Positions 27,115 to 58,842 of a stretch of DNA of 64,000 bases are shown here, piece by piece; position 1 is the first letter of the stretch; every line of letters begins with the position of its first letter. The DNA comes from a virus (Duplodnaviria; Heunggongvirae; Uroviricota; Caudoviricetes). The stretch lies in IMG/VR virus record IMGVR_UViG_3300043568_002650, positions 64,512-128,511 of that record. The stretch is one strand, 5' to 3'. The position numbers and the translations under genes are program-made. Under the pieces are notes generated by a model, which saw nothing but the letters and a program-made list of their open reading frames with translations, was not told the origin of the DNA and made no database searches.

Positions 27115-27621
27115 CTAATCTATTATACTCTTTTTTTCTGGAAAGTTTATTGCAACTTGATATAATTCTCTAAGATACATCCAAGATTTACCAAGTTTAT
27201 TCTCTCCGATCCAATCATCATCAACCAGCATTGCTCCCCAATATAGGTTAGAACCACGAGATCCTCTAGCCGTCACATCTTCAACGATTATAGCATTACC
27301 CGTTTCTAAAAGAGAATCTATTAATTCTGGATGATGCTTGATTTTCAGGAGTAGACAAAGTGTCATATTTCCATAGTCATCATCAGACATTGGCTGAATT
27401 ACCATTTTCTCCCTATGTTTCTTAGCCATCATTTTAGCAGCAATCGGAGATTTCTGTTCTCGTATTAATTCACAAATCTCTTCATCTTTAAATCTCAGTG
27501 CCTGGAATAGAGCTTCAGTAGTTCTCCAAGTTTTGCCATCGTATTCCACAGGATATGGAGCCATATTTCCAAGCCAGCCATGCTGAAGTTTAACTTTAGT
27601 GAATGATATAATATTTTCCAT
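27115..27621 (-). CDS. NADAR (YbiA-like) domain protein
   Basis: GWLGNMAPYPVEYDGKTWRTTEALFQALRF matches the YbiA/NADAR core (FSNF...DGKTWPTSEHYFQAQKF). Confidence 0.8.
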   Translation of the reverse strand: MENIISFTKVKLQHGWLGNMAPYPVEYDGKTWRTTEALFQALRFKDEEICELIREQKSPIAAKMMAKKHREKMVIQPMSDDDYGNMTLCLLLKIKHHPELIDSLLETGNAIIVEDVTARGSRGSNLYWGAMLVDDDWIGENKLGKSWMYLRELYQVAINFPEKKSIID

Positions 27622-32550: not shown

Positions 32551-34416
32551 TTACTCAGTCGGAGGAGTTACCTTTGCTGTAACATCAGTGATTACTTGTT
32601 TCTTTTCCTGGATCTGCTTTAACATTTCCATTCCAAGTAATCCATTGATTGCACCATTTCCATCATTACCTGAGATCAAGATCTCTGGGATAATTTTGAT
32701 TCCGTTAGTACCAATCATTTCAGTAACTTTTAATTTGCCAAAGTTATCTGCTCCCATTGCTTTAACCTGTTTCTCATAAGCTTCAGCAGTTGATTTACCG
32801 ATTGCTGCAATTTTACTTGCTTCAGCATCACCAGTAAGTTTAATTTGAGCCGCATCTGCTTCAGCCATCATCTTCTTAGCTTTGGCTTGAGCGCCAGCTT
32901 TTAATTCTAGTGCTTTTGCTTCACCTTCAGATCTCTTAACAGATGCTTCAGCTTCACGTTGTGAGATCTCTACTGATTGTTGAGCAGCAACCATTTTCCC
33001 TTGCATATCAGCTAGGGCTTTTGCAGATTCTAATGTCTTACGTTGATCTTGTGCCTTACGCTGAGTTTCGAAAGTTACCTCCTCTTCTTGAGCAATCTTA
33101 CGATCAGTAAGAGTTTTCATTAGGGATTCAGGTGGAGTAATATCACCAATTAAGGTATCTACTGCATGTACATTGTACTCGTCTAATACTCTACTGATAG
33201 ACTCTTTAGCTGCATTTTGTCGAGCTTGACGAGTAGTTAAGAATGCAATAACATCTGAGTCTTGAGCAGAGTTTCTAAAGTAGTTACCGATAGTTGGCTC
33301 TAATACTTGAGATACTAAGTTCTGCATTGATCCGAATCGTGCAATTACCTTTGGTGCTTCTGTTGCTGGGATATGTATGATTTGAGATACATCTAAGTTG
33401 AATGGGAAACCGTCTTTAGAACGTACTGTGATTGTACTTAATCCCTTGTCTAATTGATGAGACTCGTTTCGTGCATTCGCCCAGTTAAGTACTAGATTAG
33501 TTGTAGGTACAACTTCAATCTTATGAGTATATGGATTGATTGCATATTTTCCAGGATCAAGTGGAGTAATACATACACCCTTTTCACCTTTCTTCACGAT
33601 ATTACCGTGCTTAAAGGTTTCGCCAGTAGTGTCTACTCCTTCATCTCCAACATAAGAGATTACAACACCTACATGTCCAATAGGAATTTGAGTCATTGCG
33701 ACCTTTTCAACTTGTACTGCCCATGGGTTAAGAGAGTAATTACCCGCTTGAACTACTTGAGTCTGTAGACCACGTTGACCGTTATTTAATAAGAATGAAT
33801 CGAAATCTTGGAAGTTATTATGACCTTCGATTACTTTTCCAGCAATTGCACTCTGATCTAGTGGAACACCATCTAGTGCAGTCATTACCCCGACTTGACC
33901 ATCTTCAATATATGTAATATCAGTCATTGCTAAATCAAATAGGAATGGATTGATACGATATACACCATTATTTAAGTAACCAACTTGCTTACCTCGTTGA
34001 CCGCCATTTGTTAAGAATGCATGGGTGTCTTGGTAATTATCACACTCTACGTGTCGAGCTAGGATAGCACCGGTTGGTAGTTGTGCACCGTCTTTAGCAG
34101 ATAAGAGTCCAATCTTTCCTTGTGGAATAATCGTTAATGGTGACTGCTCAATTGAGAATTGCCATACCCAATAGAACCAATAGAGTCCAGGAGCTAAGGT
34201 GTCTGCTTGAAATCCAGGTTCACCATTAAGTGCAATAATCTTACCGTCAGGTAAGGATCTATTTGCTCCAAATAGAACGAATTTCTTAGTAACTAATCCA
34301 ATCTTGTCCTCTGGAATAATCACCATACCGAAAAATACTCTTAGTGTAAACTTGTAAAACACTAAAGCGATAAGTGGAATCGCCATCCATGCATAATTTA
34401 AAACTGTTTCTAACAT
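32551..34416 (-). CDS. flotillin / SPFH-family membrane protein (YqiK-like)
   Basis: N-terminal TM helices. Repeated GQRG.Q..V...G.Y..NP SPFH-type segments. C-terminal flotillin-like Ala/Glu/Lys coiled coil (EAEASVKRSEGEAKALELKAGAQAKAKKMMAEADAAQIKL) and a ...NGIKIIPE tail. Confidence 0.7.
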   Translation of the reverse strand: MLETVLNYAWMAIPLIALVFYKFTLRVFFGMVIIPEDKIGLVTKKFVLFGANRSLPDGKIIALNGEPGFQADTLAPGLYWFYWVWQFSIEQSPLTIIPQGKIGLLSAKDGAQLPTGAILARHVECDNYQDTHAFLTNGGQRGKQVGYLNNGVYRINPFLFDLAMTDITYIEDGQVGVMTALDGVPLDQSAIAGKVIEGHNNFQDFDSFLLNNGQRGLQTQVVQAGNYSLNPWAVQVEKVAMTQIPIGHVGVVISYVGDEGVDTTGETFKHGNIVKKGEKGVCITPLDPGKYAINPYTHKIEVVPTTNLVLNWANARNESHQLDKGLSTITVRSKDGFPFNLDVSQIIHIPATEAPKVIARFGSMQNLVSQVLEPTIGNYFRNSAQDSDVIAFLTTRQARQNAAKESISRVLDEYNVHAVDTLIGDITPPESLMKTLTDRKIAQEEEVTFETQRKAQDQRKTLESAKALADMQGKMVAAQQSVEISQREAEASVKRSEGEAKALELKAGAQAKAKKMMAEADAAQIKLTGDAEASKIAAIGKSTAEAYEKQVKAMGADNFGKLKVTEMIGTNGIKIIPEILISGNDGNGAINGLLGMEMLKQIQEKKQVITDVTAKVTPPTE

Positions 34417-34475: not shown

Positions 34476-35960
34476 TTATCCAATAAGTTTATCGATGTTA
34501 GACCGAACTTCGGTAAGAGTAGTCTCATTCAAGAATTTACCATCTTCATAGATAGTTTGCAAGATTCCAGTCTCTTCCTCTTCCCAAGAACATTGAGTGT
34601 GTACTTCATGATCTTCATCTACCATGATTAGACCCTTTAGGGATTTCTTAGTTCCATCATCAGTGATTGGATCTTTAAAAATATCATAAGCTTTACCATC
34701 AGCTTCGAACCATGCACCCTTAGCTGCAAATCCAAAAGTATCTCGAGTATTCATTTGATATGTGTATGAACCAACACCTAACACGATATTAGTTGAAGCA
34801 AATCCTTTAGCGGCTAATCGCTCATAGATTTGAATTTGGCGATCCAGTGTAATTGAGTCTCCATAGATTGCACCAATATGAGGATCTAGAACTTTGAATC
34901 CTTGTTCGTTGATTGTACCACCGAAGATATCCCATAGTAATTCGATAACGCCTTTATTTTGAGGTTCGTTTCTAGCCTCTTCACTTTCTCCATCAGGATC
35001 AAAACCGCCCCATCCACAAAGAATATCTACTGGATCTCCAGAGTCAGGGCGAATAACTAATTTACCTTCGCGAGACATAATTTGCTCCTTGTTTTCAGGC
35101 AAGTATTGAGTAATCAACGTCCATAAGTCAAAGGTATCGGATACAACTGAAAGAATTCCAGTAGGAAATTGATCCATAAAGTATTTCAACATTTGTGATT
35201 CACCCATTGTAAAGATACAAGTAGTTGATACTGAGTGTTCGGATGCATTTACAGAATTGATACTGACTTCGTTTTCTGGTTCTCCATAGAAGTATCGAGC
35301 TCCTGGAATCACAATAATTGAATCTGAGCCTCTGAAAGAGGTAGCGTGACCAAGTCCACTAGATAACATATCCCATGGGCTTAATCCTCTAGCACTAAAG
35401 TCATGAGCTAAGAAAGGAATCAACCATGCATTTGCTGGATCAGTCGTCATTACCCATTCAACAAGATTTCTTTTGTATTGAAGAGCAATAGTTGCGGATG
35501 TTGCAGGTTTCCATGCAAGAGAGGAGACAATTGTTTCTAGATAAAGAGTTAGCCAAGCAAATCCTGCAACAGTATTAACGAAAGTCATGTGAGGAACATT
35601 TGGACTTGTCTCAATTCCTTCAGGTAGAGCTTTAAAACGAATAGGCAAGTAACCTAGGTCATGTAGTTCACCAAAATGAGTAGAGTCAAACTCCATTCCT
35701 AGATACATTGACATGTCCTGACCAAACTTTAAAGCTTCGTCTTTAGGGAGACTGAAAAAATTCTCTTGATATTCGTCATGTAACCAACGAACTACTAGTT
35801 GCTGACCAAATGAAACAATTTTAGTAACACCTTTAGGCGCGTGTTTTGTGCTGCGAGGAATCCAGGTTCCATATAGGAAGTCTGTTCCTGGTGCTAGCAT
35901 TTTGCGATGGCCTATCTTGTATCCATCAGAATAAAAAAGCGTGATTGGTTTAAATGACAT
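34476..35960 (-). CDS. nadV: nicotinamide phosphoribosyltransferase family protein (NadV/NAMPT-like, or Namat-like)
   Basis: DGYKIGH (DSYKVTH), KALPEG, AHDFSARG, SVVSDTFD, VIRPDSGDPVD, AIYGDSI and FKDPITDDGTKKSLKGL all align with NAMPT hallmarks. Confidence 0.85.
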   Translation of the reverse strand: MSFKPITLFYSDGYKIGHRKMLAPGTDFLYGTWIPRSTKHAPKGVTKIVSFGQQLVVRWLHDEYQENFFSLPKDEALKFGQDMSMYLGMEFDSTHFGELHDLGYLPIRFKALPEGIETSPNVPHMTFVNTVAGFAWLTLYLETIVSSLAWKPATSATIALQYKRNLVEWVMTTDPANAWLIPFLAHDFSARGLSPWDMLSSGLGHATSFRGSDSIIVIPGARYFYGEPENEVSINSVNASEHSVSTTCIFTMGESQMLKYFMDQFPTGILSVVSDTFDLWTLITQYLPENKEQIMSREGKLVIRPDSGDPVDILCGWGGFDPDGESEEARNEPQNKGVIELLWDIFGGTINEQGFKVLDPHIGAIYGDSITLDRQIQIYERLAAKGFASTNIVLGVGSYTYQMNTRDTFGFAAKGAWFEADGKAYDIFKDPITDDGTKKSLKGLIMVDEDHEVHTQCSWEEEETGILQTIYEDGKFLNETTLTEVRSNIDKLIG

Positions 35961-35975
35961 ATTATAAATTTTTGA

Positions 35976-36470
35976 TTAGTTACTTGTGTTAATTAAATCG
36001 TCACGTAATTGAGTAAGTACTTCACCTAACCAGTTAGTACCTTTCCAATTCTTTGGATCGTGAATTTTCGGATCATCTTCAGATAAGCCGATTCCCCATA
36101 CAGTATCGTATGCTGCAGCCTCGACTAGAAGTGTTCCTTCTGTTTCTAATAAAAAAGCTAAGAGCTTAGGGTTCTGTGTAAATTTTAAGTAGCATCCATC
36201 ATAAACTATTTGCTTAGCGAATTCGTTCCAGATAGAAGAATCAAAATTCTTGACCTTTCGACCTAGTGCTTTTTGTTTACCTGGATCTTTTTCAAAAAGA
36301 ATATCTTCGAGAGTCTCATCATCACTGAATAGTCTAGCTTTTCCAGCCATCATCCATTGCTCAGAGCAATTGTATTCATTTCCTTCTTCATCTTCAAAAG
36401 TGCAAGGATGCCAATTTGAGAATGGGTTACGCGTCTTATAAAAGAACGTGTATTTTGTGTACTGTTTCAT
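35976..36470 (-). CDS. NADAR (YbiA-like) domain protein
   Basis: TFFYKTRNPFSNW, SEQWMMAGKARLF, LLVEAAAYDTVWGIG and GTNWLGEVLTQLR match the YbiA/NADAR family. Confidence 0.8.
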   Translation of the reverse strand: MKQYTKYTFFYKTRNPFSNWHPCTFEDEEGNEYNCSEQWMMAGKARLFSDDETLEDILFEKDPGKQKALGRKVKNFDSSIWNEFAKQIVYDGCYLKFTQNPKLLAFLLETEGTLLVEAAAYDTVWGIGLSEDDPKIHDPKNWKGTNWLGEVLTQLRDDLINTSN

Positions 36471-36664
36471 ACTGTTTCGTTTTTGTTTGATGATAATGTC
36501 AAGCAGACTTTACTGCCAGCAAATCTGTTCCACTTTTTTGTTTGTATTTGGACAACGTCCGAAATTGCTGATTGTAATTTAATTGTAAATTCTTTAAGGT
36601 GTACACAATCATATATACCCATACTTTCAACTTCAATCTCAATAGTTATTTTTCGTTTTGACAT
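36467..36664 (-). CDS. hypothetical small protein
   Basis: 65-aa ORF within the operon. Confidence 0.3.
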   Translation of the reverse strand: MSKRKITIEIEVESMGIYDCVHLKEFTIKLQSAISDVVQIQTKKWNRFAGSKVCLTLSSNKNETV

Positions 36665-36667
36665 TAT

Positions 36668-37006
36668 TTAGTTATTAAAGTTCTTATAAAAATCTTTTCC
36701 CGAGCCAGTAACATATTGAACTGATAGTCCAGTCGGGGTATGTAGTTCAACAAACATTGGGTTTCCAGAATAGGTACATACTTGCGTAACATACTCTAGG
36801 TTTTTTATCTCAGTTAGAAAATTTCTATTTTCTCCTAAGATCTTTAGCGAAGCATCAGTGAGATCTAATTCGTTTGATATTGTGATCTCTATGCAGTATT
36901 CGCCAGTAGCGATTGCTCGAAAGTCGCTTAATGCAGGTTTGTCATGTTTATCCACTCCAGTGTAGGTAATATTGATTGATATCTGCTTGTGCAAGAACGT
37001 GTTCAC
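36668..37006 (-). CDS. hypothetical protein
   Basis: 112-aa ORF. It overlaps the upstream gene's 3' end by 59 nt. Confidence 0.35.
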   Translation of the reverse strand: MNTFLHKQISINITYTGVDKHDKPALSDFRAIATGEYCIEITISNELDLTDASLKILGENRNFLTEIKNLEYVTQVCTYSGNPMFVELHTPTGLSVQYVTGSGKDFYKNFNN

Positions 37007-37727
37007 AAGTCGCTTTCACAATTTCAAGAGCTTGGATATACCATGAGTTGTCGCTTTCAGTCACGACATACATGCAATCACGTTCTCTAAGGAGTGTAGA
37101 CTTTCCAGGTATAATCGCTAAGACTTTAAGTGGTTCAGCCATATAGAACTCACCAGTCTTATTAGAGTAGTTTGAGTTAAGTCTATTTTCTCGACTAGTC
37201 TCATCGATAAAAGCACTAAGTGCAGCAAACTCAGATTTTATGTCAGGTTCACTAAAAATATTTGTCGAGACTGTGTTTACTCGATATGCACCTTTCTCTT
37301 TAAATAGAGCGATTATTTTAGTTACTCTAGTTAAAGCATCTTGCCAGTTAGGTTGAAACGTATACTCTTCATCCTCTTTTTGAAAGATATCATGTATTGT
37401 AGGTAGTCCTAAATTGCGTAGTATTCTCTCAAGTCCACCAGAATTATATGAGCTTCTGAAGTAGCCTATTTTGAAATAGTGATCAGGATAATCTGGATGA
37501 GGTAACTCTATACACTCCTTACCTGCCTTATCGTCTCCCCACTGGTCAAGTCCTAGACTCTCAGCAAATTCTTTCTCCTTTGTACGAAGTTCATCTTTTA
37601 CCTCTTGTGCCATTGAATCGTATTCGTGACCTTTCCATAGTTTTTCTGAAAATTCTTCGTATTCTTTCTCAAGTCTTTGAGTCTTTTCAAAATCCTGATA
37701 CTTATAAAGATAAATGTCTAATCCCAT
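36948..37727 (-). CDS. hypothetical 259-aa protein within the NAD/ADP-ribose operon
   Basis: Long ORF with no motif recognised. Confidence 0.45.
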   Translation of the reverse strand: MGLDIYLYKYQDFEKTQRLEKEYEEFSEKLWKGHEYDSMAQEVKDELRTKEKEFAESLGLDQWGDDKAGKECIELPHPDYPDHYFKIGYFRSSYNSGGLERILRNLGLPTIHDIFQKEDEEYTFQPNWQDALTRVTKIIALFKEKGAYRVNTVSTNIFSEPDIKSEFAALSAFIDETSRENRLNSNYSNKTGEFYMAEPLKVLAIIPGKSTLLRERDCMYVVTESDNSWYIQALEIVKATCEHVLAQADINQYYLHWSG

Positions 37728-37775
37728 TATAGTGTTATTTATAGATACTATACTAAATTATAGAGAAATTAAAAA

Positions 37776-38309
37776 CTATTGTACATAATTGACTATTGTC
37801 ACTTCACAAAACCAGAGTTCAGTCTCAATAATCTTTTCAATCCTTTCCCAGTCTCCTCCAGCAAGACCTGCACCAATCTTTGGTAGCCCAATATGTTTGC
37901 CTCCAAATAGGTTATTGATTTTTCGCATACACAAGGTAAATGCTTCATAATCGAATGGAGCAGTTGCACCATCTTTATGATTACGACCGTACTTATATTG
38001 AGTATATGCATTTACTACAATTAGCTCAGGTTCATTACGATTATTTTTTGCATCTTCGAGTGACCAAATAGCCTTTTCGCCAAGTACAACTGTTTTATAG
38101 TCGATATTACCTAACTTGTTGATATCTCGACCTAAGAGTTCCATCTCAAATCGATCGCAGCCAAAAGCTTTTGCCATTTGTGGAGCAATACCAGCTCCCA
38201 TAGTACTCATGCAATTACAGCCATGTGCAATCACATCAAACTTGCCCTCTTTAGCAAGCTGGATCAAGTCTCCATCTATCCTATTCATCTGCATCCTCGA
38301 TTGAAGCAA
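37776..38309 (-). CDS. macro domain (ADP-ribose binding/processing) protein
   Basis: GDLIQLAKEGKFDVIAHGCNCMSTMGAGIAPQMAKAF resembles GDIT-LAVDAIVNAAN..LGGGGVDGAIHRAAG. Later IGAGLAGGDW resembles the second macro phosphate-binding loop. Confidence 0.6.
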   Translation of the reverse strand: MLQSRMQMNRIDGDLIQLAKEGKFDVIAHGCNCMSTMGAGIAPQMAKAFGCDRFEMELLGRDINKLGNIDYKTVVLGEKAIWSLEDAKNNRNEPELIVVNAYTQYKYGRNHKDGATAPFDYEAFTLCMRKINNLFGGKHIGLPKIGAGLAGGDWERIEKIIETELWFCEVTIVNYVQ

Positions 38310-38475
38310 TTATTGTTCTCTCAATTGGATAACAGCAAACAAGTTTACTATCCGCATAGAATGCATAGTAACCACTAGAAGTGCCACTATTTGTGGTAGT
38401 ACTAAAGTTTTCTGCAAACGCGGTGTATCGACATTCACGATCGCCAATCATTACAATTAACTGATACTTATTCAT
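38281..38475 (-). CDS. hypothetical small protein (start moved to the internal Met MNKYQ)
   Basis: This ATG overlaps the stop of the upstream gene (GATGAATAA). The longer 38535 start would overlap by 68 nt. Confidence 0.3.
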   Translation of the reverse strand: MNKYQLIVMIGDRECRYTAFAENFSTTTNSGTSSGYYAFYADSKLVCCYPIERTIIASIEDADE

Positions 38476-38668
38476 CTTCGTCTTTCTTTTTTGGAAAATC
38501 TCCATCTGCATCGCAGTGAGCTGGAGGATATCCATGTGTACTAATGTTGAGGTGTCTCCAGAAACGGTTCCATACTCTAAATAAAAAGTTTAGGGGTACT
38601 GAAATTAGGATGAGTACTCCAATAAATGTCCAGAATGATCTGAACGTAAATTCTAAAAAATCCATCAT
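38468..38668 (-). CDS. small membrane protein
   Basis: 66 aa with a TM helix FWTFIGVLILISVPLNFLF. Confidence 0.35.
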   Translation of the reverse strand: MMDFLEFTFRSFWTFIGVLILISVPLNFLFRVWNRFWRHLNISTHGYPPAHCDADGDFPKKKDEDE

Positions 38669-39138
38669 ATTAATTCTTTGTTTTTAATGTCTTCTAATAA
38701 TTCGTCTAACTTTTCATAGTTAGGTATTCCATATCGTTCACATACGATATCAACGTTGCCTTTTCTCCAAAAGCCAGTCGGGCAGCATACTAGCATCCTC
38801 CCAGAATCTGCAAACTTACCGAATTCAAGTAGAGAGATCGGTGATTTTGTGTCTGGAGAAAAATACATGATTATCAAGTCAGCTTTCTCTAACGCAGTTA
38901 ATTCCCAGTTTACTTGCTGATAAAATTGAGGATTTGTTATACTCTGTGGCCAGCTTGAATCCCATTCATCTCGTCGAGGATTAAGAATAGCAATATCTTT
39001 GGGATACTTTTTAAAGTAGTTCTCGACTAGGGTTTGCCAGTCTTCTGCAATTCCCATTTCAATACTGCCAGCTAGGAAGATAGTCCGGATATTTGCGCCA
39101 GCTTTACTTATTGGATACGGCGGTTTGATTACTTTCAT
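38665..39138 (-). CDS. nucleoside 2-deoxyribosyltransferase-like (DNPH1/Rcl-type) protein
   Basis: 157 aa. IFLAGSIEMG...ILNPRRDEW...ADLIIMYF pattern resembles the N-deoxyribosyltransferase fold. Motif-level call only. Confidence 0.4.
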   Translation of the reverse strand: MKVIKPPYPISKAGANIRTIFLAGSIEMGIAEDWQTLVENYFKKYPKDIAILNPRRDEWDSSWPQSITNPQFYQQVNWELTALEKADLIIMYFSPDTKSPISLLEFGKFADSGRMLVCCPTGFWRKGNVDIVCERYGIPNYEKLDELLEDIKNKELI

Positions 39139-39139
39139 A

Positions 39140-40033
39140 TTAAAATATATTAAATTGGGTTAAGAAGCTATTATCGACTGTGTAATCTGAATATTCGTCG
39201 ACTTTAATATCCTTGACACTATTTGTACAGTAAACACCAGTAAAATAGTTGGAAAGTTCAAGTAGACCAGCTGAAAATATTCCATGAGTGACAATCAAGT
39301 AGATTTTATCACCAAATAAGTCTCGCGGTCTCTGTTCGCGAATAGCTTTTGCAACTTCAATAAATGTTCGACCTCCGTCACAAATATCGTCGATGATTAC
39401 AAAGTTTTTTCCACGAGAACCATCGATGTGTGGAAGTTCAGTGTGTAGGATCTTGCCTGTGGTCAAGTCTCTGACTTTAGATGCAGTCGCAACTTCTCTG
39501 ATATCAAAATGCTTAGCTACTCCATATATCTTTTTAAGTGCACCGGCGTCTGGCGAAATAATACATATCTTTTCTCGAGCAGCATTCGTATTATCAATTG
39601 AGGTAAGAGCAGCTTTGATTAGACTATAGTTGTCTATCTTATCTAGCCGATCAATACATGCTTCGATTACGTCAGAGTGAGGATCTAGGACTAGGACTCC
39701 TTTATAGTGCTGCGCATTAATAATTGGAGCAACAACATCCTTGATATAATTGATTGAGCCCTCTTCGAACTTACGATCACTACGACCGCCTAAGAAGTAT
39801 GGAATATAGAGAAAAATATCAGTCATTCCCATATTCTTTAGAGCGGCAGTTGCACAAAGAATAAGTTCAAGATCCTGAAAGCTAGTAAATCTTGAATAGA
39901 TCTTAATTGCAATTTCAGATGCTACACCTGAAGTTATCTTAATAGACTGCTGACCATCAGGAAATTTTGTTTTCTCGAACTTAATATCTGATTTCTCAGG
40001 ATATGCGAGATTAAGTGTGCTAATTTTTGACAT
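39140..40033 (-). CDS. prs: ribose-phosphate pyrophosphokinase family protein (Prs-like; could be ADPR-PP synthetase)
   Basis: IPYFLGGRSDRK (IPYFGYARQDRR), LVLDPHSDVIEACID (DLHAEQIQGFFD), ISPDAGALKK, NFVIIDDICDGGRT (VLVDDMIDTGGT) and THGIFS (THPIFS). Confidence 0.85.
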   Translation of the reverse strand: MSKISTLNLAYPEKSDIKFEKTKFPDGQQSIKITSGVASEIAIKIYSRFTSFQDLELILCATAALKNMGMTDIFLYIPYFLGGRSDRKFEEGSINYIKDVVAPIINAQHYKGVLVLDPHSDVIEACIDRLDKIDNYSLIKAALTSIDNTNAAREKICIISPDAGALKKIYGVAKHFDIREVATASKVRDLTTGKILHTELPHIDGSRGKNFVIIDDICDGGRTFIEVAKAIREQRPRDLFGDKIYLIVTHGIFSAGLLELSNYFTGVYCTNSVKDIKVDEYSDYTVDNSFLTQFNIF

Positions 40034-40047
40034 CTTAGTTACGGGTT

Positions 40048-40458
40048 TTAATTAATTTTTTCTATTTTAACTACTGAACCTTGGCCGTGCATTACTTGGA
40101 TCACATAGGAGCCAATCGTATACATTGATCCGGTAAAAGTGTTTGCATATTGAGGATCTTCACAAGGCTTGCAATATTCTTCTGCATAATTAAATGCGAC
40201 CCAAAGAAGAGTTTCTCTAGGCTCATATCCTAATCTATATTCTCGACGAACGTATTCGTCTGAATCGTACTTGTCAATTATCTTTTCAAGCACTTCATCA
40301 AGTCGACCTTCGGTGTATTGCTTAAATCGCTCTACTTGACGATCGCGGTAGTCTTCCTCTTGTTCAAGTTTTTTACCAAACTCTTCAAGATATCGCTGAC
40401 CCTCTTCAGTTTCTAATAAAGCTGTTAACTTATCTAGTAGACTTATTTTTTCGCTCAT
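40048..40458 (-). CDS. hypothetical protein
   Basis: 136-aa ORF. Confidence 0.4.
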   Translation of the reverse strand: MSEKISLLDKLTALLETEEGQRYLEEFGKKLEQEEDYRDRQVERFKQYTEGRLDEVLEKIIDKYDSDEYVRREYRLGYEPRETLLWVAFNYAEEYCKPCEDPQYANTFTGSMYTIGSYVIQVMHGQGSVVKIEKIN

Positions 40459-40847
40459 AATTCTAGGTGTTTTTTAGCGTTATCTAAATAACCCTGTATG
40501 TTTTTCTTTCCTACTGGATTTGCAGAGTGTACATGGTATTCTGGTAGTTTAAATCCATTATCTAAACAGTATTCAACTAGCCATTTTGCACAGTCTAATC
40601 CAGTTTCCTCTACTCCAAGCTGATCTGCGGTCATGTCATTCCAGTCATTAAAGTCAACTTCATAGTGAACATCCGCAAGATCATGATCAAATGATACTAT
40701 TTCTGGGAGACCATTTCTCTTGATCCATGCACAAAATTCAGGATAGTTCTTTACTATTGCCCAATCGTCTTCCCAATAGAGAGCTGGATTTAGGACAAGA
40801 TAGCAAGCATCTTTGGGTTGTCTAATATCGTCTAGGAATAGTTTCAT
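40455..40847 (-). CDS. hypothetical protein
   Basis: 130-aa ORF. Confidence 0.4.
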   Translation of the reverse strand: MKLFLDDIRQPKDACYLVLNPALYWEDDWAIVKNYPEFCAWIKRNGLPEIVSFDHDLADVHYEVDFNDWNDMTADQLGVEETGLDCAKWLVEYCLDNGFKLPEYHVHSANPVGKKNIQGYLDNAKKHLEL

Positions 40848-41341: not shown

Positions 41342-41496
41342 TCACCTTTTTGGCTGTATGATGTACCAGCAGATACATACTGTGCAGTTACTGAAATTAC
41401 TTCCCAGCCTTTGTCCAACCATTCATTGACGTCTCTCGGGTTATCGACTATTAAAAATTTTTGCTGTTTCATCTTATTTACTTTCAAAAAGTTCAA
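41314..41496 (-). CDS. hypothetical small protein
   Basis: 60-aa ORF. Confidence 0.3.
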   Translation of the reverse strand: MNFLKVNKMKQQKFLIVDNPRDVNEWLDKGWEVISVTAQYVSAGTSYSQKGEWAILLQKL

Positions 41497-42019
41497 TTAG
41501 GTATGCAAATAGTGGAGTAAGCGCATGATTACCAGAACCAGCCCATCCTAATTTTTCCATAAAGTTTTCATTTTCTCTCTTGTACATTTCAAACATTCTA
41601 GAACCACTTATTTTTGAATACTGAACATTTGCAATACGGTCACATAGTTTTACAAAGACTGCCCCTGGCTGATTACGAATTCCTTCATAATACTTATCAT
41701 TTGCTCTTTCTGCACGATTCTTCCCTTTCTCATTACTAACAGCATAGATAATATCTGCTGCACATTCACCAAGCTCTTCAACAACATCATTATATGAAAC
41801 TCGAGTGTCCTCAATAAGATCATGTCCCCAACAAGCTAAGTAGACATTTACCTGGCTGTCAATTGTTCCATGATGATTTGAAAGTATGTACTTAAATCTA
41901 TTATATGCCTCAACTACCATTCTTAAATGAAACTCGTATGGCAAATATTTATCGTACATGTGATTAGTCGAACGATGTTGTTCTAATACCCAATCGGATT
42001 TTGATTTTAATCTTTCCAT
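41474..42019 (-). CDS. HD-domain phosphohydrolase, Mesh1/SpoT-hydrolase-like (small alarmone hydrolase candidate)
   Basis: EFHL ... LACWGHDLIEDTRVSYNDVVEELG closely resembles the RelA/SpoT/Mesh1 hydrolase HDxxEDT...EEFG signature. TATAAT sits 6 nt before the ATG. Confidence 0.55.
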   Translation of the reverse strand: MERLKSKSDWVLEQHRSTNHMYDKYLPYEFHLRMVVEAYNRFKYILSNHHGTIDSQVNVYLACWGHDLIEDTRVSYNDVVEELGECAADIIYAVSNEKGKNRAERANDKYYEGIRNQPGAVFVKLCDRIANVQYSKISGSRMFEMYKRENENFMEKLGWAGSGNHALTPLFAYLIELFESK

Positions 42020-42045: not shown

Positions 42046-42393
42046 CTAATTAATAGGTGTGATCCAAATATCTTTAGGAAAATCGCCAAAGACAAACTTA
42101 GTGACGTCACATAACCAGACTCTTAAATTGATAGTCAATCCAATATATTCATCAATATGATATTGAGCACCTTCGCCTATTTCAGGAGTCTCTCTTATGA
42201 AGTGTAGGTGATATGCATTATCTACTTTTCTAGTGGAAAGAATAGCTCTGACTTCACCTAAGCCTTCTGCCATGTATTCTAACATAGTATCAGCTCCATC
42301 CACCATTTCTAGCGCAGCCTTAGGACCTTCCCACTCAGGCAAGTCAACATACCATCGATGAGTCTCTTCTTTATAGAATCTAAACTCTTTCAT
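42046..42393 (-). CDS. hypothetical protein
   Basis: 115-aa ORF. Confidence 0.4.
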   Translation of the reverse strand: MKEFRFYKEETHRWYVDLPEWEGPKAALEMVDGADTMLEYMAEGLGEVRAILSTRKVDNAYHLHFIRETPEIGEGAQYHIDEYIGLTINLRVWLCDVTKFVFGDFPKDIWITPIN

Positions 42394-56279: not shown

Positions 56280-57413
56280 TTACACATATAGTAAATCTAG
56301 TGGAGATTCGGAAAAGTATTGTAGAACAAACTCATTAAACTGATCAAAAGTAAGAGACTTATCGTGTTTTAACATAAACGAATATAGATCATTCACATCT
56401 TTAATTAGTCGAACACTTCTATAATCTTCACTATATTTTTTTCGAAGATCTGCCATTACTTTATTCCATAGGAATACTTGATAACCTTTTTTGATTAGTT
56501 CAATAGATTGAGTCTTACCAGCAAGGTCACTATCGAATAGGATTAGGGTGTTTGATTTACTTAATAGGTTCTCCAATAGAAGTTTACTCTTAGAGATACC
56601 AGTAGTGGCGATTGAGTTATTCAGGAACATTGCATCAATTTGACCCTCAGTTACTAGGATAGGCTTTGTAAAATCAACATTCAATACATTAAAGTAATTA
56701 TTAATTGAATCAATATCAGATATTATATCGTCTTCTACGTTTCGGACAAGACCATTCTTTTTTAATTCAGAATAGTTTTTAATTAGGTATTTTGGCCCAG
56801 TGATATCTTCACCGATTCGACGTATTGCAAAACCAAGTATCTTACCAGTTCGATAATCTATATTAAAAAGATATACTTTATCCTCTCTTGAATCAAAATA
56901 ACTACACCTTTGAAATGCAGGGAGAGTATCAAGTGCGCGATTTTTTATGAATAGTCCAAGTTCAGTATCTGGATCAATCTCACTACATGGAGTTAATGAA
57001 AATCGGTGAGCTACTTCTTCTATTTTTAAGAGGTGATCACTTGCGTTCTTATTAATTAAGAGCTCGATTAATGAGCCTCTCTTCTTTTTAGAAGTTTGAG
57101 GAACCCACTCTTCTTTTGCATTAACCTCAGGTATTCCTAGTGAATATTTAAGTGCAAATTTAGAGATAAACTTAGGAATATCAGATTTTACACCACATCC
57201 ATCATTATAGCATTTGTAGAATCCGCGATCAGGATATATGTTTCCTCTCTTTTTTCTAGAGTCTGATTTGGAATCTCCGCAATATGGGCAGGCGAAATTA
57301 ATCTTATCACCAGATTCATATACTTCCTGTTTAAATCGATCATCTGGAAATCTCTTCTTTAGGACATCCTTTATGAAAGCGTGTATATTGTATCCAGTTA
57401 ACAAATTAATCAT
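56280..57413 (-). CDS. g61: DNA primase (T4 gp61-like; zinc ribbon + TOPRIM)
   Basis: ACPYCGDSKSDSRKKRGNIYP...YKCYNDGCG matches gp61 CPVCGDSKTDQNKARGWYY...CYNC. LVTEGQIDAMF is the TOPRIM acidic motif. Confidence 0.8.
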   Translation of the reverse strand: MINLLTGYNIHAFIKDVLKKRFPDDRFKQEVYESGDKINFACPYCGDSKSDSRKKRGNIYPDRGFYKCYNDGCGVKSDIPKFISKFALKYSLGIPEVNAKEEWVPQTSKKKRGSLIELLINKNASDHLLKIEEVAHRFSLTPCSEIDPDTELGLFIKNRALDTLPAFQRCSYFDSREDKVYLFNIDYRTGKILGFAIRRIGEDITGPKYLIKNYSELKKNGLVRNVEDDIISDIDSINNYFNVLNVDFTKPILVTEGQIDAMFLNNSIATTGISKSKLLLENLLSKSNTLILFDSDLAGKTQSIELIKKGYQVFLWNKVMADLRKKYSEDYRSVRLIKDVNDLYSFMLKHDKSLTFDQFNEFVLQYFSESPLDLLYV

Positions 57414-58842
57414 TTTCTTCTTCCTCTAATACGGGAACAAGATTAGATTTTTCCTTCTTCTTGATCATCCTTTTTAAATACTTATCGAGTTCTGGCTTAG
57501 GAACAATTGTGGTATTTAGACCATATCGAGTAATAACTCCCAAATATTCTTGGAAGTCTTCTTCTGGAATATCGGCATCTGCATTTCCTATGACTTTCCA
57601 GAATTTTTCTGGGACTTCAACATATTCTAGTGTCTCCTGATCAACTATGTATAACGGAAATATCTCAGCATCAGTAAGTACCTTCTTGCTTTTTACTGTT
57701 ACTAACTCTACTGTTCTCTTTAAGTTTGAATCAAGAGAACTGATCTTCATTGCAGTCAATAATCGATTAATAGGTTCAATAATTAGTGAAAAGAATTGAG
57801 AGTCAATATCCATAAGTAGAGCGATCTCATCAGGATAGGTTCCAGGAGAGTATGCAAATACATCATGACCTCCTTCATTAGATGCAGGATTACAGTAATA
57901 AAATTTTATTTTATCACCTTCTCTAATCTTTGGATATTTTTCAACTAGTCCAGTAGTAATTAAAGTATGATTATAAATTGCAGCTGCTCTAGGAAAGATT
58001 GATATTCCTTTTCTGAGTTCAAGTTTAGCTTCACTAGCAACATACTTATTATAGACTCTAATTCTAAAGTTAAAGGCTAGATCATCTGGATGAAGACTAA
58101 GTGCTTCATTCTTTAGATCTAACAGTCGAGGAATAATATCTTTTTCTAAGTCAAGTCTTTTACCGCGATCCATAACAAAGGAGGTAAGCTCAGTAAGTTT
58201 ATTTCGAGCCCAGATAGGGTATGAACCCTTAACTGGTTCTAGACCTTTTATTATTAAGTATCTCTTATCTTGTGGTTCTAGCTCATAATTTGGGTTTGGC
58301 TCATATGCTACTCTAATAGCATAGTTTTTCTTTTTTAGCCAAATACCAGTCTCAGAAAGATTTTCAAGTTTAAACTTAAGTCGGTTCTTAGTATTAAAAA
58401 CTCTTCCATATTTCTCAAAGCACATATCAAAATAACTAGATAGACGATATCGATCAATACTAATACAGATATTTAAAGCTTCGTCTTTTGAAAAATCAGC
58501 GCCAATTATTGAATCAAGGGCAGAGTCAAACTGTACATAAATTGAGTCAGTATCAGTATAGATTGCAGCTTCTGCTTCAATCTTATTAATAGTGTATTGA
58601 TCAATTCCAAGCAATTTGTGTAGCTCAGTATCAAGATGCCACTTTTCTAAAAAATAATGGTTTACTGCTTTAATCGAAAACTTGATTAGATCTTGTCCTT
58701 GTAGAGTGATGGACTGTGCAATATCTGGGTTGTAAAAATAGAACCACTTATTTCCAAATGCACCATAAATTGAGTTAATTAGGATCTTTATCGCATTCTG
58801 CTTCAGATCAAGTTTTTTGATATTTTTTGCTTTATCTTCCAT
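57406..58842 (-). CDS. g43: family-B DNA polymerase, C-terminal fragment only (gp43-like; motifs B and C and thumb)
   Basis: KILINSIYGAFGN (motif B, KxxxNSxYG) at residues 19-31. ITLQGQ. IYTDTDSIYV (motif C). The ORF starts 18 aa before motif B, and upstream is an intergenic region followed by a + strand gene. Confidence 0.85.
   Translation of the reverse strand: MEDKAKNIKKLDLKQNAIKILINSIYGAFGNKWFYFYNPDIAQSITLQGQDLIKFSIKAVNHYFLEKWHLDTELHKLLGIDQYTINKIEAEAAIYTDTDSIYVQFDSALDSIIGADFSKDEALNICISIDRYRLSSYFDMCFEKYGRVFNTKNRLKFKLENLSETGIWLKKKNYAIRVAYEPNPNYELEPQDKRYLIIKGLEPVKGSYPIWARNKLTELTSFVMDRGKRLDLEKDIIPRLLDLKNEALSLHPDDLAFNFRIRVYNKYVASEAKLELRKGISIFPRAAAIYNHTLITTGLVEKYPKIREGDKIKFYYCNPASNEGGHDVFAYSPGTYPDEIALLMDIDSQFFSLIIEPINRLLTAMKISSLDSNLKRTVELVTVKSKKVLTDAEIFPLYIVDQETLEYVEVPEKFWKVIGNADADIPEEDFQEYLGVITRYGLNTTIVPKPELDKYLKRMIKKKEKSNLVPVLEEEEND

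What the first reader, a model, noticed from the sequence alone, without database searches (positions are those of the whole stretch)
34476..40033. NAD+/ADP-ribose counter-defence operon: NAMPT-family enzyme, Prs-family kinase, NADAR domain, macro domain and a deoxyribosyltransferase-like protein
A co-directional minus-strand operon encodes five ADP-ribose/NAD-related products:
- (i) a clear NAMPT-family enzyme at 34476..35960
- (ii) a NADAR/YbiA domain at 35976..36470
- (iii) a macro domain at 37776..38309
- (iv) a nucleoside 2-deoxyribosyltransferase-like protein at 38665..39138
- (v) a clear Prs-family ribose-phosphate pyrophosphokinase at 39140..40033
Three unknown ORFs lie between them.
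A Prs homologue plus a NAMPT homologue is the composition reported for phage NAD+ reconstitution pathway 1. In that pathway Adps converts ADPR to ADPR-PP, and Namat converts ADPR-PP plus nicotinamide to NAD+. The same pair is also compatible with PRPP synthetase plus NadV salvage, as in KVP40-type phages.
NADAR domains reverse DarT-type guanine ADP-ribosylation of DNA. Macro domains remove or bind ADP-ribose.
Together these point to a module that neutralises NAD-depleting immunity (Thoeris, DSR, SIR2/SEFIR) and ADP-ribosylating immunity (DarTG-like). Tight linkage of NADAR, macro and a DRTase-like gene with a NARP-like pair is not a described arrangement. The three intervening unknown ORFs (36467..37727) could be new components.
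Basis: partly seen in the sequence, partly recalled or inferred. Interest (0 to 1): 0.8.

Follow-up and report, generated by a model that had tools for sequence, protein, structure and literature searches.

The report
Expanded phage NAD+-rebuilding (NARP1) gene cluster
An uncultured phage carries the known two-enzyme pathway that rebuilds NAD+ after bacterial immune systems destroy it, extended with a known helper phosphatase, an ADP-ribose-removing NADAR enzyme and a nucleotide-glycosidase-like enzyme that recurs next to this pathway in related phages and that no paper I could search links to it.

Summary
All five domain calls are confirmed at the stated minus-strand coordinates. The "Prs + NAMPT" pair is best read as NARP1 (Adps + Namat):
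- The NAMPT homologue scores 404 bits to the solved SPbetaL1 Namat, against 146-171 bits to true Nampts.
- It carries the Namat-specific clamp motif (GSYTYQMNTRD).

The macro protein is homologous to Adpp, the ADPR-1''-phosphate phosphatase of the "NARP1-AP" pathway described in 2026. Macro plus NARP1 is therefore already a described arrangement.

The NADAR is a YbiA-family enzyme with the catalytic residues checked intact. It is missing from the closest relatives fetched from IMG/VR but lies between Adps and Namat in 6 of 50 non-redundant related loci.

The new result concerns the PF15891 "deoxyribosyltransferase-like" gene:
- It lies near NARP1 in 29 of 50 non-redundant related loci.
- 24 of 30 copies lie within 300 bp of a NARP1 gene, always on the same strand, in many gene orders.
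- Conversely, 27 of 36 viral PF15891 loci have NARP1 in view.

The cluster also extends upstream to a cREC (predicted cyclic-phosphate-processing) gene. The intervening unknown ORFs are not conserved with NARP1 and look like cargo.

Verdict: a new variant of a known system, with one testable new accessory enzyme.

The parts
39140..40033 (-). Adps-like enzyme (Prs-family ADPR pyrophosphokinase), NARP1 step 1
   Evidence: phrog_619 1.9e-65. TIGR01251 (Prs) scores 102 bits, below its 113-bit cut-off. A profile built from SPbetaL1, Bas60 and KissB Adps scores it 143.6 bits, against 94.1 for E. coli Prs. It shares the Adps-set motifs DPHSDV, SPDAGA.KK and DDICDGGRTF, where Prs has DLHAEQIQGFF and DDMIDTGGT. 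The Namat gene is the 10th gene downstream.
34476..35960 (-). Namat (nicotinamide ADPR-transferase), NARP1 step 2
   Evidence: 404 bits to the SPbetaL1 Namat structures 9w5x/9w5w, against 171 (Xcc Nampt) and 146 (human NAMPT). 16 of 19 NAD+-contact residues are identical and the other three are substitutions also seen in reference Namats. The selectivity-clamp motif GSYTYQMNTRD has Namat length (motif defined in PMC12774641).
37776..38309 (-). Macro-domain protein, Adpp-like ADPR-1''-phosphate phosphatase. The true start is probably the ATG at 38288, giving 170 aa.
   Evidence: phrog_335 1.8e-44. 32% identity, E 5e-18 to Vibrio phage Gary Adpp. 40% identity to the Acinetobacter phage macro proteins listed as NARP1-associated in Table S1 of 10.64898/2026.01.28.702374. 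Poa1p E 4e-4. Called as 170 aa in metagenome contigs.
38665..39138 (-). PF15891 nucleoside 2-deoxyribosyltransferase-like protein; candidate new NARP1 accessory enzyme (nucleotide N-glycosidase fold)
   Evidence: PF15891 1.3e-33. Starts 1 nt after the Adps stop. AF2 model pLDDT 89. Fold matches 4mcj, then the MilB/BcmB/RCL/DNPH1 N-glycosidases. E79, E105 and R55/R56 are invariant. Adjacent to NARP1 genes in relatives.
35976..36470 (-). NADAR domain protein, YbiA family
   Evidence: PF08719 1.7e-50 and TIGR02464 161 bits. PnNADAR 8bau E 5e-22 and YbiA 2b3w. The SEQ...K catalytic pair and the Glu in the last strand (LVEA) are conserved. Absent from the closest IMG/VR relatives L002-L006. Lies between Adps and Namat in 6 of the 7 non-redundant related loci that have it.
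40455..40847 (-). cREC (cyclic-phosphate-processing receiver-like) domain protein
   Evidence: PF20274 1.7e-24 and phrog_1479. Acidic motifs LFLDDIR and SFDHDL are visible in the sequence. Conserved two genes upstream of Adps in L002-L006 and directly upstream of Adps in L055, L067 and L069.
40048..40458 (-). Conserved 136-aa ORF between cREC and Adps, function unknown
   Evidence: No Pfam or PHROG hit. Present upstream of Adps in 5 of 50 non-redundant loci.
38468..38668 (-). 66-aa ORF with one hydrophobic helix, function unknown
   Evidence: Conserved after the PF15891 gene in L002-L006. No family hit.
38281..38535 (-). Small ORF (84 aa as listed, called as 64 aa in metagenome contigs), unknown
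   Evidence: Precedes the macro gene in 6 related loci. No family hit.
36948..37727 (-). 259-aa unknown protein, probably cargo unrelated to NARP1
36668..37006 (-). 112-aa ORF (probably 95 aa), unknown, cargo
   Evidence: Matched only L002/L004, plus one weak (30%) hit about 7 kb from NARP1 in L023.
36467..36664 (-). 65-aa ORF, unknown, present together with the NADAR gene
   Evidence: No match in the IMG/VR loci searched. Present with NADAR in identical metagenome contigs.

Best explanation
This is an expanded NARP1 (NAD+ reconstitution pathway 1) locus of an uncultured tailed phage, probably infecting a Bacteroidota host.

Core pathway. This is inferred by homology to characterised enzymes; no activity was measured here.
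- The Prs-like enzyme (Adps) pyrophosphorylates ADP-ribose with ATP to give ADPR-PP.
- The NAMPT-like enzyme (Namat) joins ADPR-PP to nicotinamide to remake NAD+.
- Together they undo NAD+ depletion by SIR2/TIR/SEFIR-type defences.

Accessory genes between and beside the two core genes most likely widen the range of NAD+ breakdown products that can be returned to ADPR.
- The macro protein is an Adpp-type ADPR-1''-phosphate phosphatase (the NARP1-AP pathway). It counters RES-type NADases.
- The upstream cREC protein is predicted to open ADPR-1'',2''-cyclic phosphate to ADPR-1''-P for the macro enzyme. The cyclic phosphate is the known decay product of ADPR-PP. This step is my inference.
- The YbiA-family NADAR removes ADP-ribose from guanine (anti-DarT1-type protection), releasing ADPR.
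- The PF15891 protein has a nucleotide N-glycosidase fold and conserved Glu residues. It is the most frequent NARP1 neighbour in this phage clade. I propose that it cleaves an N-glycosidic (ADP-)ribosyl compound to supply ADPR or nicotinamide. Its substrate is unknown.

The other small or unknown ORFs are variable cargo in an insertion hotspot between Adps and Namat.
For: Namat identity:
- PDB search scores of 404 bits to SPbetaL1 Namat against 146-171 bits to Nampts.
- Clamp motif and contact residues conserved (PMC12774641).

Adps identity:
- Scores below the Prs family cut-off.
- Scores 50 bits higher than E. coli Prs on an Adps profile.
- Shares Adps-set motif changes in the ribose-5-phosphate loop.
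- Relatives at 57-59% identity have Adps and Namat directly adjacent (L007-L009).

No NMNAT or Nudix gene was found among the ORFs of 120 aa or more in the 64-kb window.

Adpp identity.

PF15891 association:
- In 50 non-redundant loci, 29 carry the gene within 4 kb of NARP1.
- 24 of 30 copies lie within 300 bp of Adps or Namat. All are on the same strand, in at least 8 gene orders.
- Flanking window genes are far rarer in these loci.
- In reverse, 27 of 36 non-redundant viral PF15891 loci have NARP1 within 8 kb.
- PF15891 is fused to an ADP-ribosyltransferase domain (ART-PolyVal) in Tunturiibacter phage Tunturi_5 gp225.

Other points:
- NADAR lies inside the Adps-Namat interval in 6 of the 7 loci that have it.
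- Macro, NADAR and cREC were already predicted to be ADPr-processing partners in jumbo phages (PMC7824862).
- ADPR-cP forms from ADPR-PP in vivo and in vitro (10.1101/2024.02.11.579819).
- The exact arrangement recurs in at least 5 metagenome contigs.
Against: - No biochemistry was done.
- Pairwise, the Adps-like protein is no closer to SPbetaL1 Adps (63 bits) than to E. coli Prs (66 bits). No full Prs/Adps phylogeny was built, so Adps placement rests on the profile score, the motifs and the gene context.
- Clamp position 7 is Met rather than an aromatic residue. The same is true of the Acinetobacter phage KissB Namat.
- The 80+80 comparison loci are the ones most similar to the window, so shared ancestry inflates the counts. 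Clustering at 85% identity and the variety of gene orders only partly correct for this.
- In isolate phages, PF15891 genes are rare (48 records). In the five contexts checked (X1, Slickus01, Tunturi_5, Lak-A1, CcrColossus) none is adjacent to NARP1.
- Bacterial PF15891 homologues sit in contexts unrelated to NAD.
- The NADAR is absent from the closest IMG/VR relatives. The phage also has a second NADAR elsewhere. Its role could therefore be independent of NARP1.
Confidence: 0.75

Rival explanations
1. Ordinary salvage. The two enzymes are a PRPP synthetase and a nicotinamide phosphoribosyltransferase that make NMN. The host, or an unseen phage NMNAT, converts NMN to NAD+ (NARP2-like or KVP40-like boosting).
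For: Pfam and NCBIfam name the proteins Prs-like and NAPRTase/Nampt-like. Pairwise similarity to E. coli Prs equals that to SPbetaL1 Adps. Namat enzymes retain some PRPP activity in vitro (PMC12774641). Only 64 kb of a roughly 128-kb genome was seen.
Against: The Namat-type clamp motif is present and similarity to the solved Namat is far higher than to Nampts. The Prs family cut-off is not met. No NMNAT or Nudix gene is in the window. In the published survey, Prs homologues linked to Nampt homologues were almost always Adps, and no phage carried both NARP1 and NARP2 (10.1101/2024.02.11.579819).
Confidence: 0.08
2. Only Adps, Namat and perhaps the macro protein work together. NADAR, the PF15891 protein, cREC and the unknown ORFs are unrelated genes that accumulate in a hypervariable early-gene or anti-defence island. 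NADAR would act alone as an anti-DarT1 factor. PF15891 would act in nucleotide or DNA-modification metabolism, as a DNPH1/MilB-type (d)NMP hydrolase.
For: The Adps-Namat interval varies widely between relatives. Besides these genes it holds lipoprotein-like, methyltransferase-like and HAD-like genes. NADAR is absent from the closest IMG/VR relatives. All phage NADARs tested so far act on guanine-ADP-ribosylated DNA (PMC11257639, PMC11125620). The nearest characterised folds to PF15891 are NMP/dNMP N-glycosidases. Bacterial homologues have no NAD context.
Against: 24 of 30 PF15891 copies abut Adps or Namat on the same strand, in many different orders. 75% of the viral PF15891 loci examined have NARP1 nearby. 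NADAR recurs inside the interval in 6 non-redundant loci. PF15891 is fused to an ADP-ribosyltransferase domain in another phage.
Confidence: 0.25
3. The PF15891 protein is not an enzyme of the pathway. It is a sponge or inhibitor that binds ADPR-derived immune signals or a host NADase, in the way Tad proteins or aRad1 do.
For: Its flavodoxin/TIR-like fold is a small nucleotide-binding fold. Phage counter-defence often works by sequestration (10.64898/2026.05.28.727677, 10.64898/2026.01.28.702374).
Against: The catalytic-type residues (two Glu, an Arg pair) are invariant. They are also conserved in chromosomal bacterial homologues at 65-70% identity, which points to an enzyme with a cellular role.
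Confidence: 0.07

Closest known systems
NARP1 (Adps + Namat) of phages Bas63, SPbetaL1 and FADO (Osterman et al., 10.1101/2024.02.11.579819; structure paper PMC12774641)
   Same: A Prs-family gene is linked to a Nampt-family gene on one strand. The Namat clamp motif and catalytic residues are present. Close relatives have the two genes adjacent.
   Different: The two genes are separated by nine ORFs (about 3.2 kb). The Adps is only 31-37% identical to the reference Adps proteins. Clamp position 7 is Met.
NARP1-AP (NARP1 with the macro-domain phosphatase Adpp; Vibrio phage Gary; 10.64898/2026.01.28.702374)
   Same: A Poa1p-like macro protein lies inside the NARP1 cluster. It is 32% identical to Gary Adpp and shares the HxCNC...MGxGIAP and GLPxIGxGLAGGDW motifs.
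   Different: Other genes sit between the macro gene and both core genes. The Pfam Macro score falls just below threshold.
Phage NADAR anti-DarT1 factors (AdfN of T4; NADARs of Bas32 and Bas60; PMC11257639) and YbiA-family NADARs (PMC11125620)
   Same: NADAR fold, catalytic Glu/Lys pair and last-strand Glu. Bas60-62, which carry a NADAR (PMC11257639), are phi92-like phages; Bas60 has NARP1.
   Different: Here the NADAR lies inside the NARP1 interval. The phage also has a second, 27%-identical NADAR at 27115-27621. Activity and target (DNA or a soluble ADPR conjugate) are unknown.
RyDEP, the RyR-domain glycosidase next to NARP1 in mycobacteriophage DyoEdafos (10.64898/2026.05.28.727677)
   Same: The concept is the same: an accessory hydrolase beside NARP1 converts an ADPR-derived molecule to linear ADPR, which feeds NAD+ synthesis.
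   Different: The fold is unrelated. No RyR-domain hit was found among the cluster's ORFs. The PF15891 protein resembles N-glycosidases, not O-glycosidases.
NDT/Rcl(DNPH1)/MilB superfamily of nucleoside and nucleotide N-glycosidases and transferases; PDB 4mcj (BDI_0649, uncharacterised)
   Same: Same fold, with TM 0.84 to 4mcj. Glu is conserved in the LLE[LF]G segment; my recollection, untested, is that the nucleophile Glu of Rcl/NDT lies in an equivalent segment. There is also a GSI-type N-terminal loop.
   Different: Only 12-17% identical to the characterised members. No substrate is known for any PF15891 protein.
Macro/NADAR/cREC 'NAD+-centred conflict systems' predicted in jumbo phages (Iyer et al. 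2021, PMC7824862)
   Same: The same set of domains is predicted to linearise ADPr derivatives. cREC was defined there by its linkage to NAD+/ADPr enzymes.
   Different: In the passages read, that work did not tie these domains to NARP1 (then undiscovered), and a term search of the paper found no 'deoxyribosyltransferase'.

Membership tests
NARP1 | A Prs-family gene with a Namat/Nampt-family gene within 10 genes (the operational definition of Osterman et al.) | tested here: met
   Adps-like gene at 39140-40033 and Namat at 34476-35960, on the same strand with nine ORFs between them.
NARP1 | The Prs homologue belongs to the Adps clade, not to cellular Prs | tested here: inconclusive
   Below the TIGR01251 cut-off, 102 against 113 bits. 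Adps profile gives 143.6 bits, against 94.1 for E. coli Prs. Shares Adps-set motifs. However, pairwise bits to SPbetaL1 Adps (63) are about equal to those to E. coli Prs (66), and no tree with many Prs sequences was built.
NARP1 | [quoted passage not shown] | tested here: met
   GSYTYQMNTRD has the correct length and 10 of 11 positions. Position 7 is Met, as in the Acinetobacter phage KissB Namat.
NARP1 | Namat is closer to characterised Namat than to Nampt, with catalytic core residues intact | tested here: met
   404 bits to 9w5x against 171 and 146 bits to Nampts. D13, Y15, F189, R192, D215, R306 and D308 equivalents are conserved.
NARP1 | ADPR to ADPR-PP to NAD+ enzymatic activity, and rescue from NAD+-depleting defences | not testable with these tools
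   Requires enzyme assays and phage genetics.
NARP1 | No NARP2 (Nampt + NMNAT) in the same genome | tested here: inconclusive
   No NMNAT or Nudix family among the ORFs of 120 aa or more in the window. Only 64 kb of a roughly 128-kb genome was seen.
NARP1-AP (Adpp) | A macro-domain gene within the NARP1 cluster | tested here: met
   37776-38309 lies between Adps and Namat. Macro lies inside the interval in 15 of the 16 related loci that have it.
NARP1-AP (Adpp) | Homology to characterised Adpp and Poa1p | tested here: met
   32% identity, E 5e-18 to Gary Adpp. Poa1p 6lfu E 4e-4. phrog_335 1.8e-44. Pfam Macro is only 20.5 bits against a gathering score of 22.
NARP1-AP (Adpp) | ADPR-1''-phosphate phosphatase activity | not testable with these tools
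   Requires an assay with ADPR-1''P.
NADAR (YbiA family) / phage anti-DarT1 NADAR | NADAR domain with the catalytic Glu/Lys pair and a last-strand acidic residue | tested here: met
   PF08719 1.7e-50. CSEQWMMAGK has E37 and K44 at the same spacing as AdfN E36/K43. LVEA aligns with LVEH of YbiA (PMC11257639, PMC11125620).
NADAR (YbiA family) / phage anti-DarT1 NADAR | Removes ADP-ribose from guanine in DNA and rescues phage from DarTG1 | not testable with these tools
   Requires de-ADP-ribosylation and plaque assays.
PF15891 (NDT-like superfamily) | Domain match, NDT/Rcl-like fold and conserved acidic residues | tested here: met
   PF15891 1.3e-33. 4mcj E 7e-32. Fold TM 0.84, followed by MilB/RCL/DNPH1/NDT matches. 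E79 and E105 invariant. That E105 is the catalytic nucleophile is my inference from the alignment, not tested.
cREC (PF20274) | Receiver-like domain with conserved aspartates, linked to NAD+/ADPr-processing genes | tested here: met
   PF20274 1.7e-24 over the full profile. LFLDDIR and SFDHDL motifs. Linked to NARP1 here and in relatives. Any catalytic activity of cREC is itself only a prediction (PMC7824862).

The most novel reading that the evidence does not exclude
PF15891 proteins are a previously unrecognised third class of NARP1 accessory enzyme, alongside Adpp and RyDEP. On this reading they are N-glycosidases that convert a non-canonical NAD+ breakdown product or an N-linked ADPR immune signal into ADPR or nicotinamide for NARP1. 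Candidate substrates are His-ADPR, an N-glycosidic cyclic ADPR isomer, or NMN. If so, they would point to a matching and possibly undescribed NAD+-based defence in Bacteroidota and other aquatic hosts. A related possibility is that cREC plus macro recycle ADPR-1'',2''-cyclic phosphate, the decay product of the labile ADPR-PP intermediate, back into the pathway.
Probability: 0.3. Interest if true: 0.8.

Novelty: new variant of a known kind. Interest (0 to 1): 0.6.

Why it matters
NAD+ depletion is estimated to underlie immunity in more than 15-20% of bacteria (10.64898/2026.01.28.702374). Each accessory enzyme found beside NARP1 so far has revealed a distinct host strategy:
- Adpp revealed RES-type NADases that make ADPR-1''P.
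- RyDEP revealed degradation of Thoeris cyclic ADPR signals.

A PF15891 enzyme abuts NARP1 in more than half of the related environmental phage loci examined. It is therefore a concrete lead to another host NAD+-derived product or signal, and to the first function for a family that has a solved structure but no known substrate. The locus also gives a natural test case for whether NADAR and cREC enzymes feed ADPR recycling. If the accessory genes turn out to be unrelated cargo, the locus is simply another NARP1-AP example.

Tried and rejected
- Near-identity DNA search of the cluster against 50,697 phage records found nothing. The phage is uncultured. The closest isolate hits are Leptolyngbya phage Lbo-JY46 (Adps 43%) and Cellulophaga phages (macro 50%, cREC 44%).
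- Promoter and terminator consensus scans gave fewer promoter-like sites than in shuffled sequence. Terminator-like sites were about twice the shuffle mean, but none sat at a gene boundary that would delimit an operon. A Bacteroidota-type TAnnTTTG search found no intergenic site within the cluster itself; the only one lies upstream near 44515. Operon boundaries therefore remain undefined.
- The PF15891 contexts checked in isolate jumbo phages and in Bacteroidota chromosomes showed no adjacent NARP1 or NAD genes. CcrColossus has a Nampt + Nudix pair about 7 kb away on the other strand, which I regard as weak evidence.
- Pairwise BLAST could not separate Adps from Prs, so I used a small Adps profile instead.
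- Literature searches for PF15891 or deoxyribosyltransferase together with NARP1 returned nothing. A YtoQ search was uninformative.

Full report
**Observation**

Profile searches support each domain call:
- NAPRTase/Nampt for 34476-35960 (PF04095 9.5e-33; phrog_448 1.4e-157; NF006629 421 bits).
- NADAR for 35976-36470 (PF08719 1.7e-50).
- Nuc_deoxyri_tr2 (PF15891, 1.3e-33) for 38665-39138.
- Prs-like for 39140-40033 (phrog_619 1.9e-65).
- Macro for 37776-38309. Pfam gives only 20.5 bits against a gathering score of 22. The call is secured by phrog_335 'phosphatase' (1.8e-44), by Poa1p (6lfu, E 4e-4) and by homology to characterised phage macro phosphatases (see below).

There are five unannotated ORFs inside the cluster, not three. 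The tightly packed co-directional block continues upstream through a 136-aa ORF to a cREC_REC gene at 40455-40847 (PF20274 1.7e-24).

The window is phage DNA. It encodes a portal protein, DNA polymerase, primase and helicase. It has no near-identical relative among 50,697 phage records. Three observations suggest a Bacteroidota host: AT-rich leaders without Shine-Dalgarno sequences, best isolate hits to Cellulophaga phages, and 65-70% identical host-like genes in Bacteroidota MAGs.

**The core is NARP1, not Prs plus NadV**

Osterman et al. (10.1101/2024.02.11.579819) showed the following:
- Phage Prs/Nampt pairs are Adps (ADPR + ATP gives ADPR-PP) and Namat (ADPR-PP + nicotinamide gives NAD+).
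- 97% of Adps-clade genes have a Namat within 10 genes.
- NARP2 is instead Nampt + NMNAT, as in KVP40.

A 2026 structure paper (PMC12774641) defined a Namat-specific 'selectivity clamp' motif, GS-X-Phi-X-Phi-X-Phi-TRD, which is absent from Nampt.

For Namat, the evidence is strong:
- The window protein matches the solved SPbetaL1 Namat at 404 bits, against 171 (Xanthomonas Nampt) and 146 (human NAMPT).
- It carries GSYTYQMNTRD.
- It keeps 16 of 19 NAD+-contact residues unchanged. The three differences (K for R40, S for A362, Y for F392) also occur in reference Namats. Met at clamp position 7 recurs in an Acinetobacter phage Namat.

For Adps, the evidence is supportive but weaker:
- It falls below NCBI's Prs family cut-off, 102 against 113 bits.
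- It shares DPHSDV, SPDAGA.KK and DDICDGGRTF with the reference Adps proteins. E. coli Prs has DLHAEQIQGFF and DDMIDTGGT at these sites.
- It scores 143.6 bits on a profile of three independent Adps proteins, against 94.1 for E. coli Prs.
- Pairwise scores alone do not separate the families, and I did not build a full tree. Adps placement is therefore supported but not proven.

Relatives at 57-59% identity have Adps and Namat directly adjacent (L007-L009). No NMNAT or Nudix gene occurs among the ORFs of 120 aa or more in the window.

**The macro gene matches a described extension**

Osterman et al. 2026 (10.64898/2026.01.28.702374) reported the following:
- 15% of NARP1 phages carry a Poa1p-like macro protein, Adpp.
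- Adpp converts ADPR-1''-phosphate, the product of RES-domain 'aRES' NADases, to ADPR. The extended pathway is named NARP1-AP.

The window macro protein is 32% identical (E 5e-18) to the characterised Vibrio phage Gary Adpp. It shares that protein's HxCNC...MGxGIAP and GLPxIGxGLAGGDW motifs. It is also about 40% identical to Acinetobacter phage macro proteins listed in that paper's Table S1.

The macro's likely role is to feed NARP1, not to reverse DarTG-type modification.

**Comparative genomics of the locus**

I fetched 9 close and then 80 broader IMG/VR loci encoding relatives of the Adps (at least 49% identity). I mapped the window's proteins onto them.

The closest IMG/VR relatives (L002 and L004, Adps above 90%) have this order: cREC - u136 - Adps - PF15891 - u66 - u84 - Macro - (a lipoprotein-like gene) - u259 - u112 - Namat - SPFH. 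They lack NADAR and the 65-aa ORF. L003 has Macro directly followed by Namat. Other inserts in the interval include methyltransferase-like and HAD-like genes. The Adps-Namat interval is thus an insertion hotspot.

After clustering at 85% Adps identity, 50 non-redundant loci carry both core genes. Within 4 kb of the core:

| Gene | Loci with the gene (of 50) |
|---|---|
| PF15891 | 29 |
| Macro | 16 |
| NADAR | 7 |
| cREC | 7 |
| SPFH | 5 |
| HD phosphohydrolase | 5 |

Counting every copy within the fetched flanks of up to 10 kb gives the adjacency figures:
- 24 of 30 PF15891 copies lie within 300 bp of Adps or Namat. All are on the same strand, in at least eight gene orders. Examples are Adps-DRT-Namat, Adps-Namat-DRT, Adps-Macro-DRT-Namat, Adps-Macro-NADAR-Namat-(SPFH)-DRT and DRT-Namat-Adps.
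- 15 of 16 macro genes lie inside the Adps-Namat interval.
- 6 of 7 NADAR genes lie inside the interval.
- Ordinary flanking genes of the window are much rarer and are scattered.

In the reverse direction, 36 non-redundant viral PF15891 loci have at least 4 kb on both sides. Of these, 27 have Adps or Namat within 8 kb.

These samples are the loci most similar to the window, so shared ancestry inflates the numbers. The variety of gene orders argues for selection on linkage.

In isolate phages, PF15891 is rare (48 records). In the five contexts I checked it is not adjacent to NARP1. That would explain why a survey of isolate genomes did not flag it.

**What the PF15891 protein might do**

- It has thousands of single-domain homologues of about 155 aa. 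These include chromosomal copies in Bacteroidota whose contexts are uninformative.
- A confident model (pLDDT 89) matches the uncharacterised 4mcj. It then matches, more distantly, YtoQ, the CMP N-glycosidases MilB and BcmB, the dNMP N-hydrolase RCL/DNPH1, and nucleoside deoxyribosyltransferases.
- Two Glu residues (E79 in NWE, E105 in LLE[LF]G), an Arg pair and a GSI loop are invariant. That E105 is the nucleophile is my inference by analogy with NDT/Rcl.
- In Tunturiibacter phage Tunturi_5, the domain is fused to an ADP-ribosyltransferase domain (ART-PolyVal) in a 1262-aa protein encoded next to the portal gene. This is independent support for a link to NAD+/ADP-ribose chemistry.
- No paper in the searchable library connects PF15891 with NARP1.

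I propose that it cleaves an N-glycosidic (ADP-)ribosyl compound to supply ADPR or nicotinamide. This would parallel Adpp, and RyDEP, which converts 2'/3'cADPR to ADPR beside NARP1 (10.64898/2026.05.28.727677). The substrate is unknown and this step is inference.

**NADAR and cREC**

The NADAR is closest to the Phytophthora NADAR structure (8bau, 5e-22). It keeps the Glu/Lys catalytic pair and the last-strand Glu that defines the YbiA family. Every phage NADAR tested so far removes ADP-ribose from guanine in DNA and counters DarTG1 (PMC11257639; PMC11125620). That is the default expectation here.

Two observations leave open a role that feeds ADPR recycling. The NADAR recurs inside NARP1 intervals, and the phage has a second NADAR, 27% identical, at 27115-27621.

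cREC domains were defined by Iyer et al. (PMC7824862) as predicted cyclic-phosphate-processing enzymes linked to NAD+/ADPr genes. ADPR-PP decays to ADPR-cyclic phosphate. In yeast, Appr>p is opened to ADPR-1''P, which Poa1p then dephosphorylates; this is established tRNA-splicing by-product chemistry that I am citing from my own knowledge. A cREC + macro relay that recycles this dead-end product is therefore plausible, but it is untested.

**Unknown ORFs**

The 259-aa protein has 537 homologues, no Pfam family, and a confident model with no fold match. Outside the closest relatives it was seen with NARP1 in only one further locus (L122). In another phage its homologue lies in a context unrelated to NARP1. 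The 112-aa, 65-aa, 84-aa and 66-aa ORFs are lineage-restricted. I treat all of them as cargo. One possible exception is the 136-aa ORF between cREC and Adps, which is present in 5 of 50 loci.

**Verdict**

The locus is a NARP1-AP-type counter-defence cluster. It is a new variant, because a PF15891 enzyme, and less often a NADAR and a cREC, are recurrently built into it. The exact arrangement is a real circulating genotype, seen in at least five metagenome contigs.

Noticed in passing
window 27115-27621 (-): A second, divergent NADAR-domain protein (168 aa; Pfam NADAR 3.4e-17; phrog_1017). It is only 27% identical to the NADAR in the NARP1 cluster, so the phage carries two NADAR paralogues.
   Followed up: partly
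L009 10830-13234; L036 2670-5062; L046 10967-12658; L067 2496-5194; L072 10932-13433; L079 2803-4509: In several related phages the Namat gene matches as two or three separate pieces 0.2-0.9 kb apart. This suggests introns, inteins or homing-endonuclease insertions in Namat.
   Followed up: no
window 32551-34416 (-): A 621-aa SPFH/Band 7 protein lies directly downstream of Namat. The same Namat-SPFH adjacency recurs in 4 of the 5 non-redundant related loci that have an SPFH gene.
   Followed up: partly
window 41474-42019 (-): An HD-type metal-dependent phosphohydrolase (phrog_990 1.9e-26, no Pfam hit) lies upstream of the cluster. It occurs near Adps in 5-6 related loci and may be the 'HD-alarmone phosphodiesterase' type described for jumbo phages.
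   Followed up: no
L013 5989-9777 (Tunturiibacter phage Tunturi_5 gp225): A 1262-aa protein next to the portal gene is annotated as NUDIX hydrolase. It actually begins with a PF15891 domain followed by an ART-PolyVal ADP-ribosyltransferase domain.
   Followed up: partly
window 58208-58296 (+): ARAGORN calls a tRNA-Pyl-like gene with a CTA (amber-reading) anticodon. It lies inside, and antisense to, the DNA polymerase ORF at 57406-58842, so it is probably a false positive. That polymerase ORF matches only the C-terminal part of PolA profiles, so the polymerase may be split.
   Followed up: no
window, ORFs of 120 aa or more outside the cluster (sets): A Pfam sweep found PhoH, a TnsA-like endonuclease, HNH and NUMOD homing-endonuclease domains, a 2OG-Fe(II) oxygenase, an AAA ATPase, an SLT lytic transglycosylase, an M28 peptidase and a zinc protease. 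I did not map these hits to individual ORFs.
   Followed up: no
L093 17280-19883 (Caulobacter phage CcrColossus gp203-gp204): A Nampt-type gene plus a Nudix-domain gene (NARP2-like) lie about 7 kb from that phage's PF15891 gene, on the opposite strand.
   Followed up: no
L094 and L095 (Bacteroidota MAG contigs): Chromosomal PF15891 homologues lie next to, or near, a PEP_mutase-family (PF13714) gene in two unrelated MAGs. This may hint at the cellular role of the family.
   Followed up: no
window 42046-42393 (-): A DUF6717 protein (8.9e-33) in the same co-directional block appears in several related loci near NARP1. Its function is unknown.
   Followed up: no
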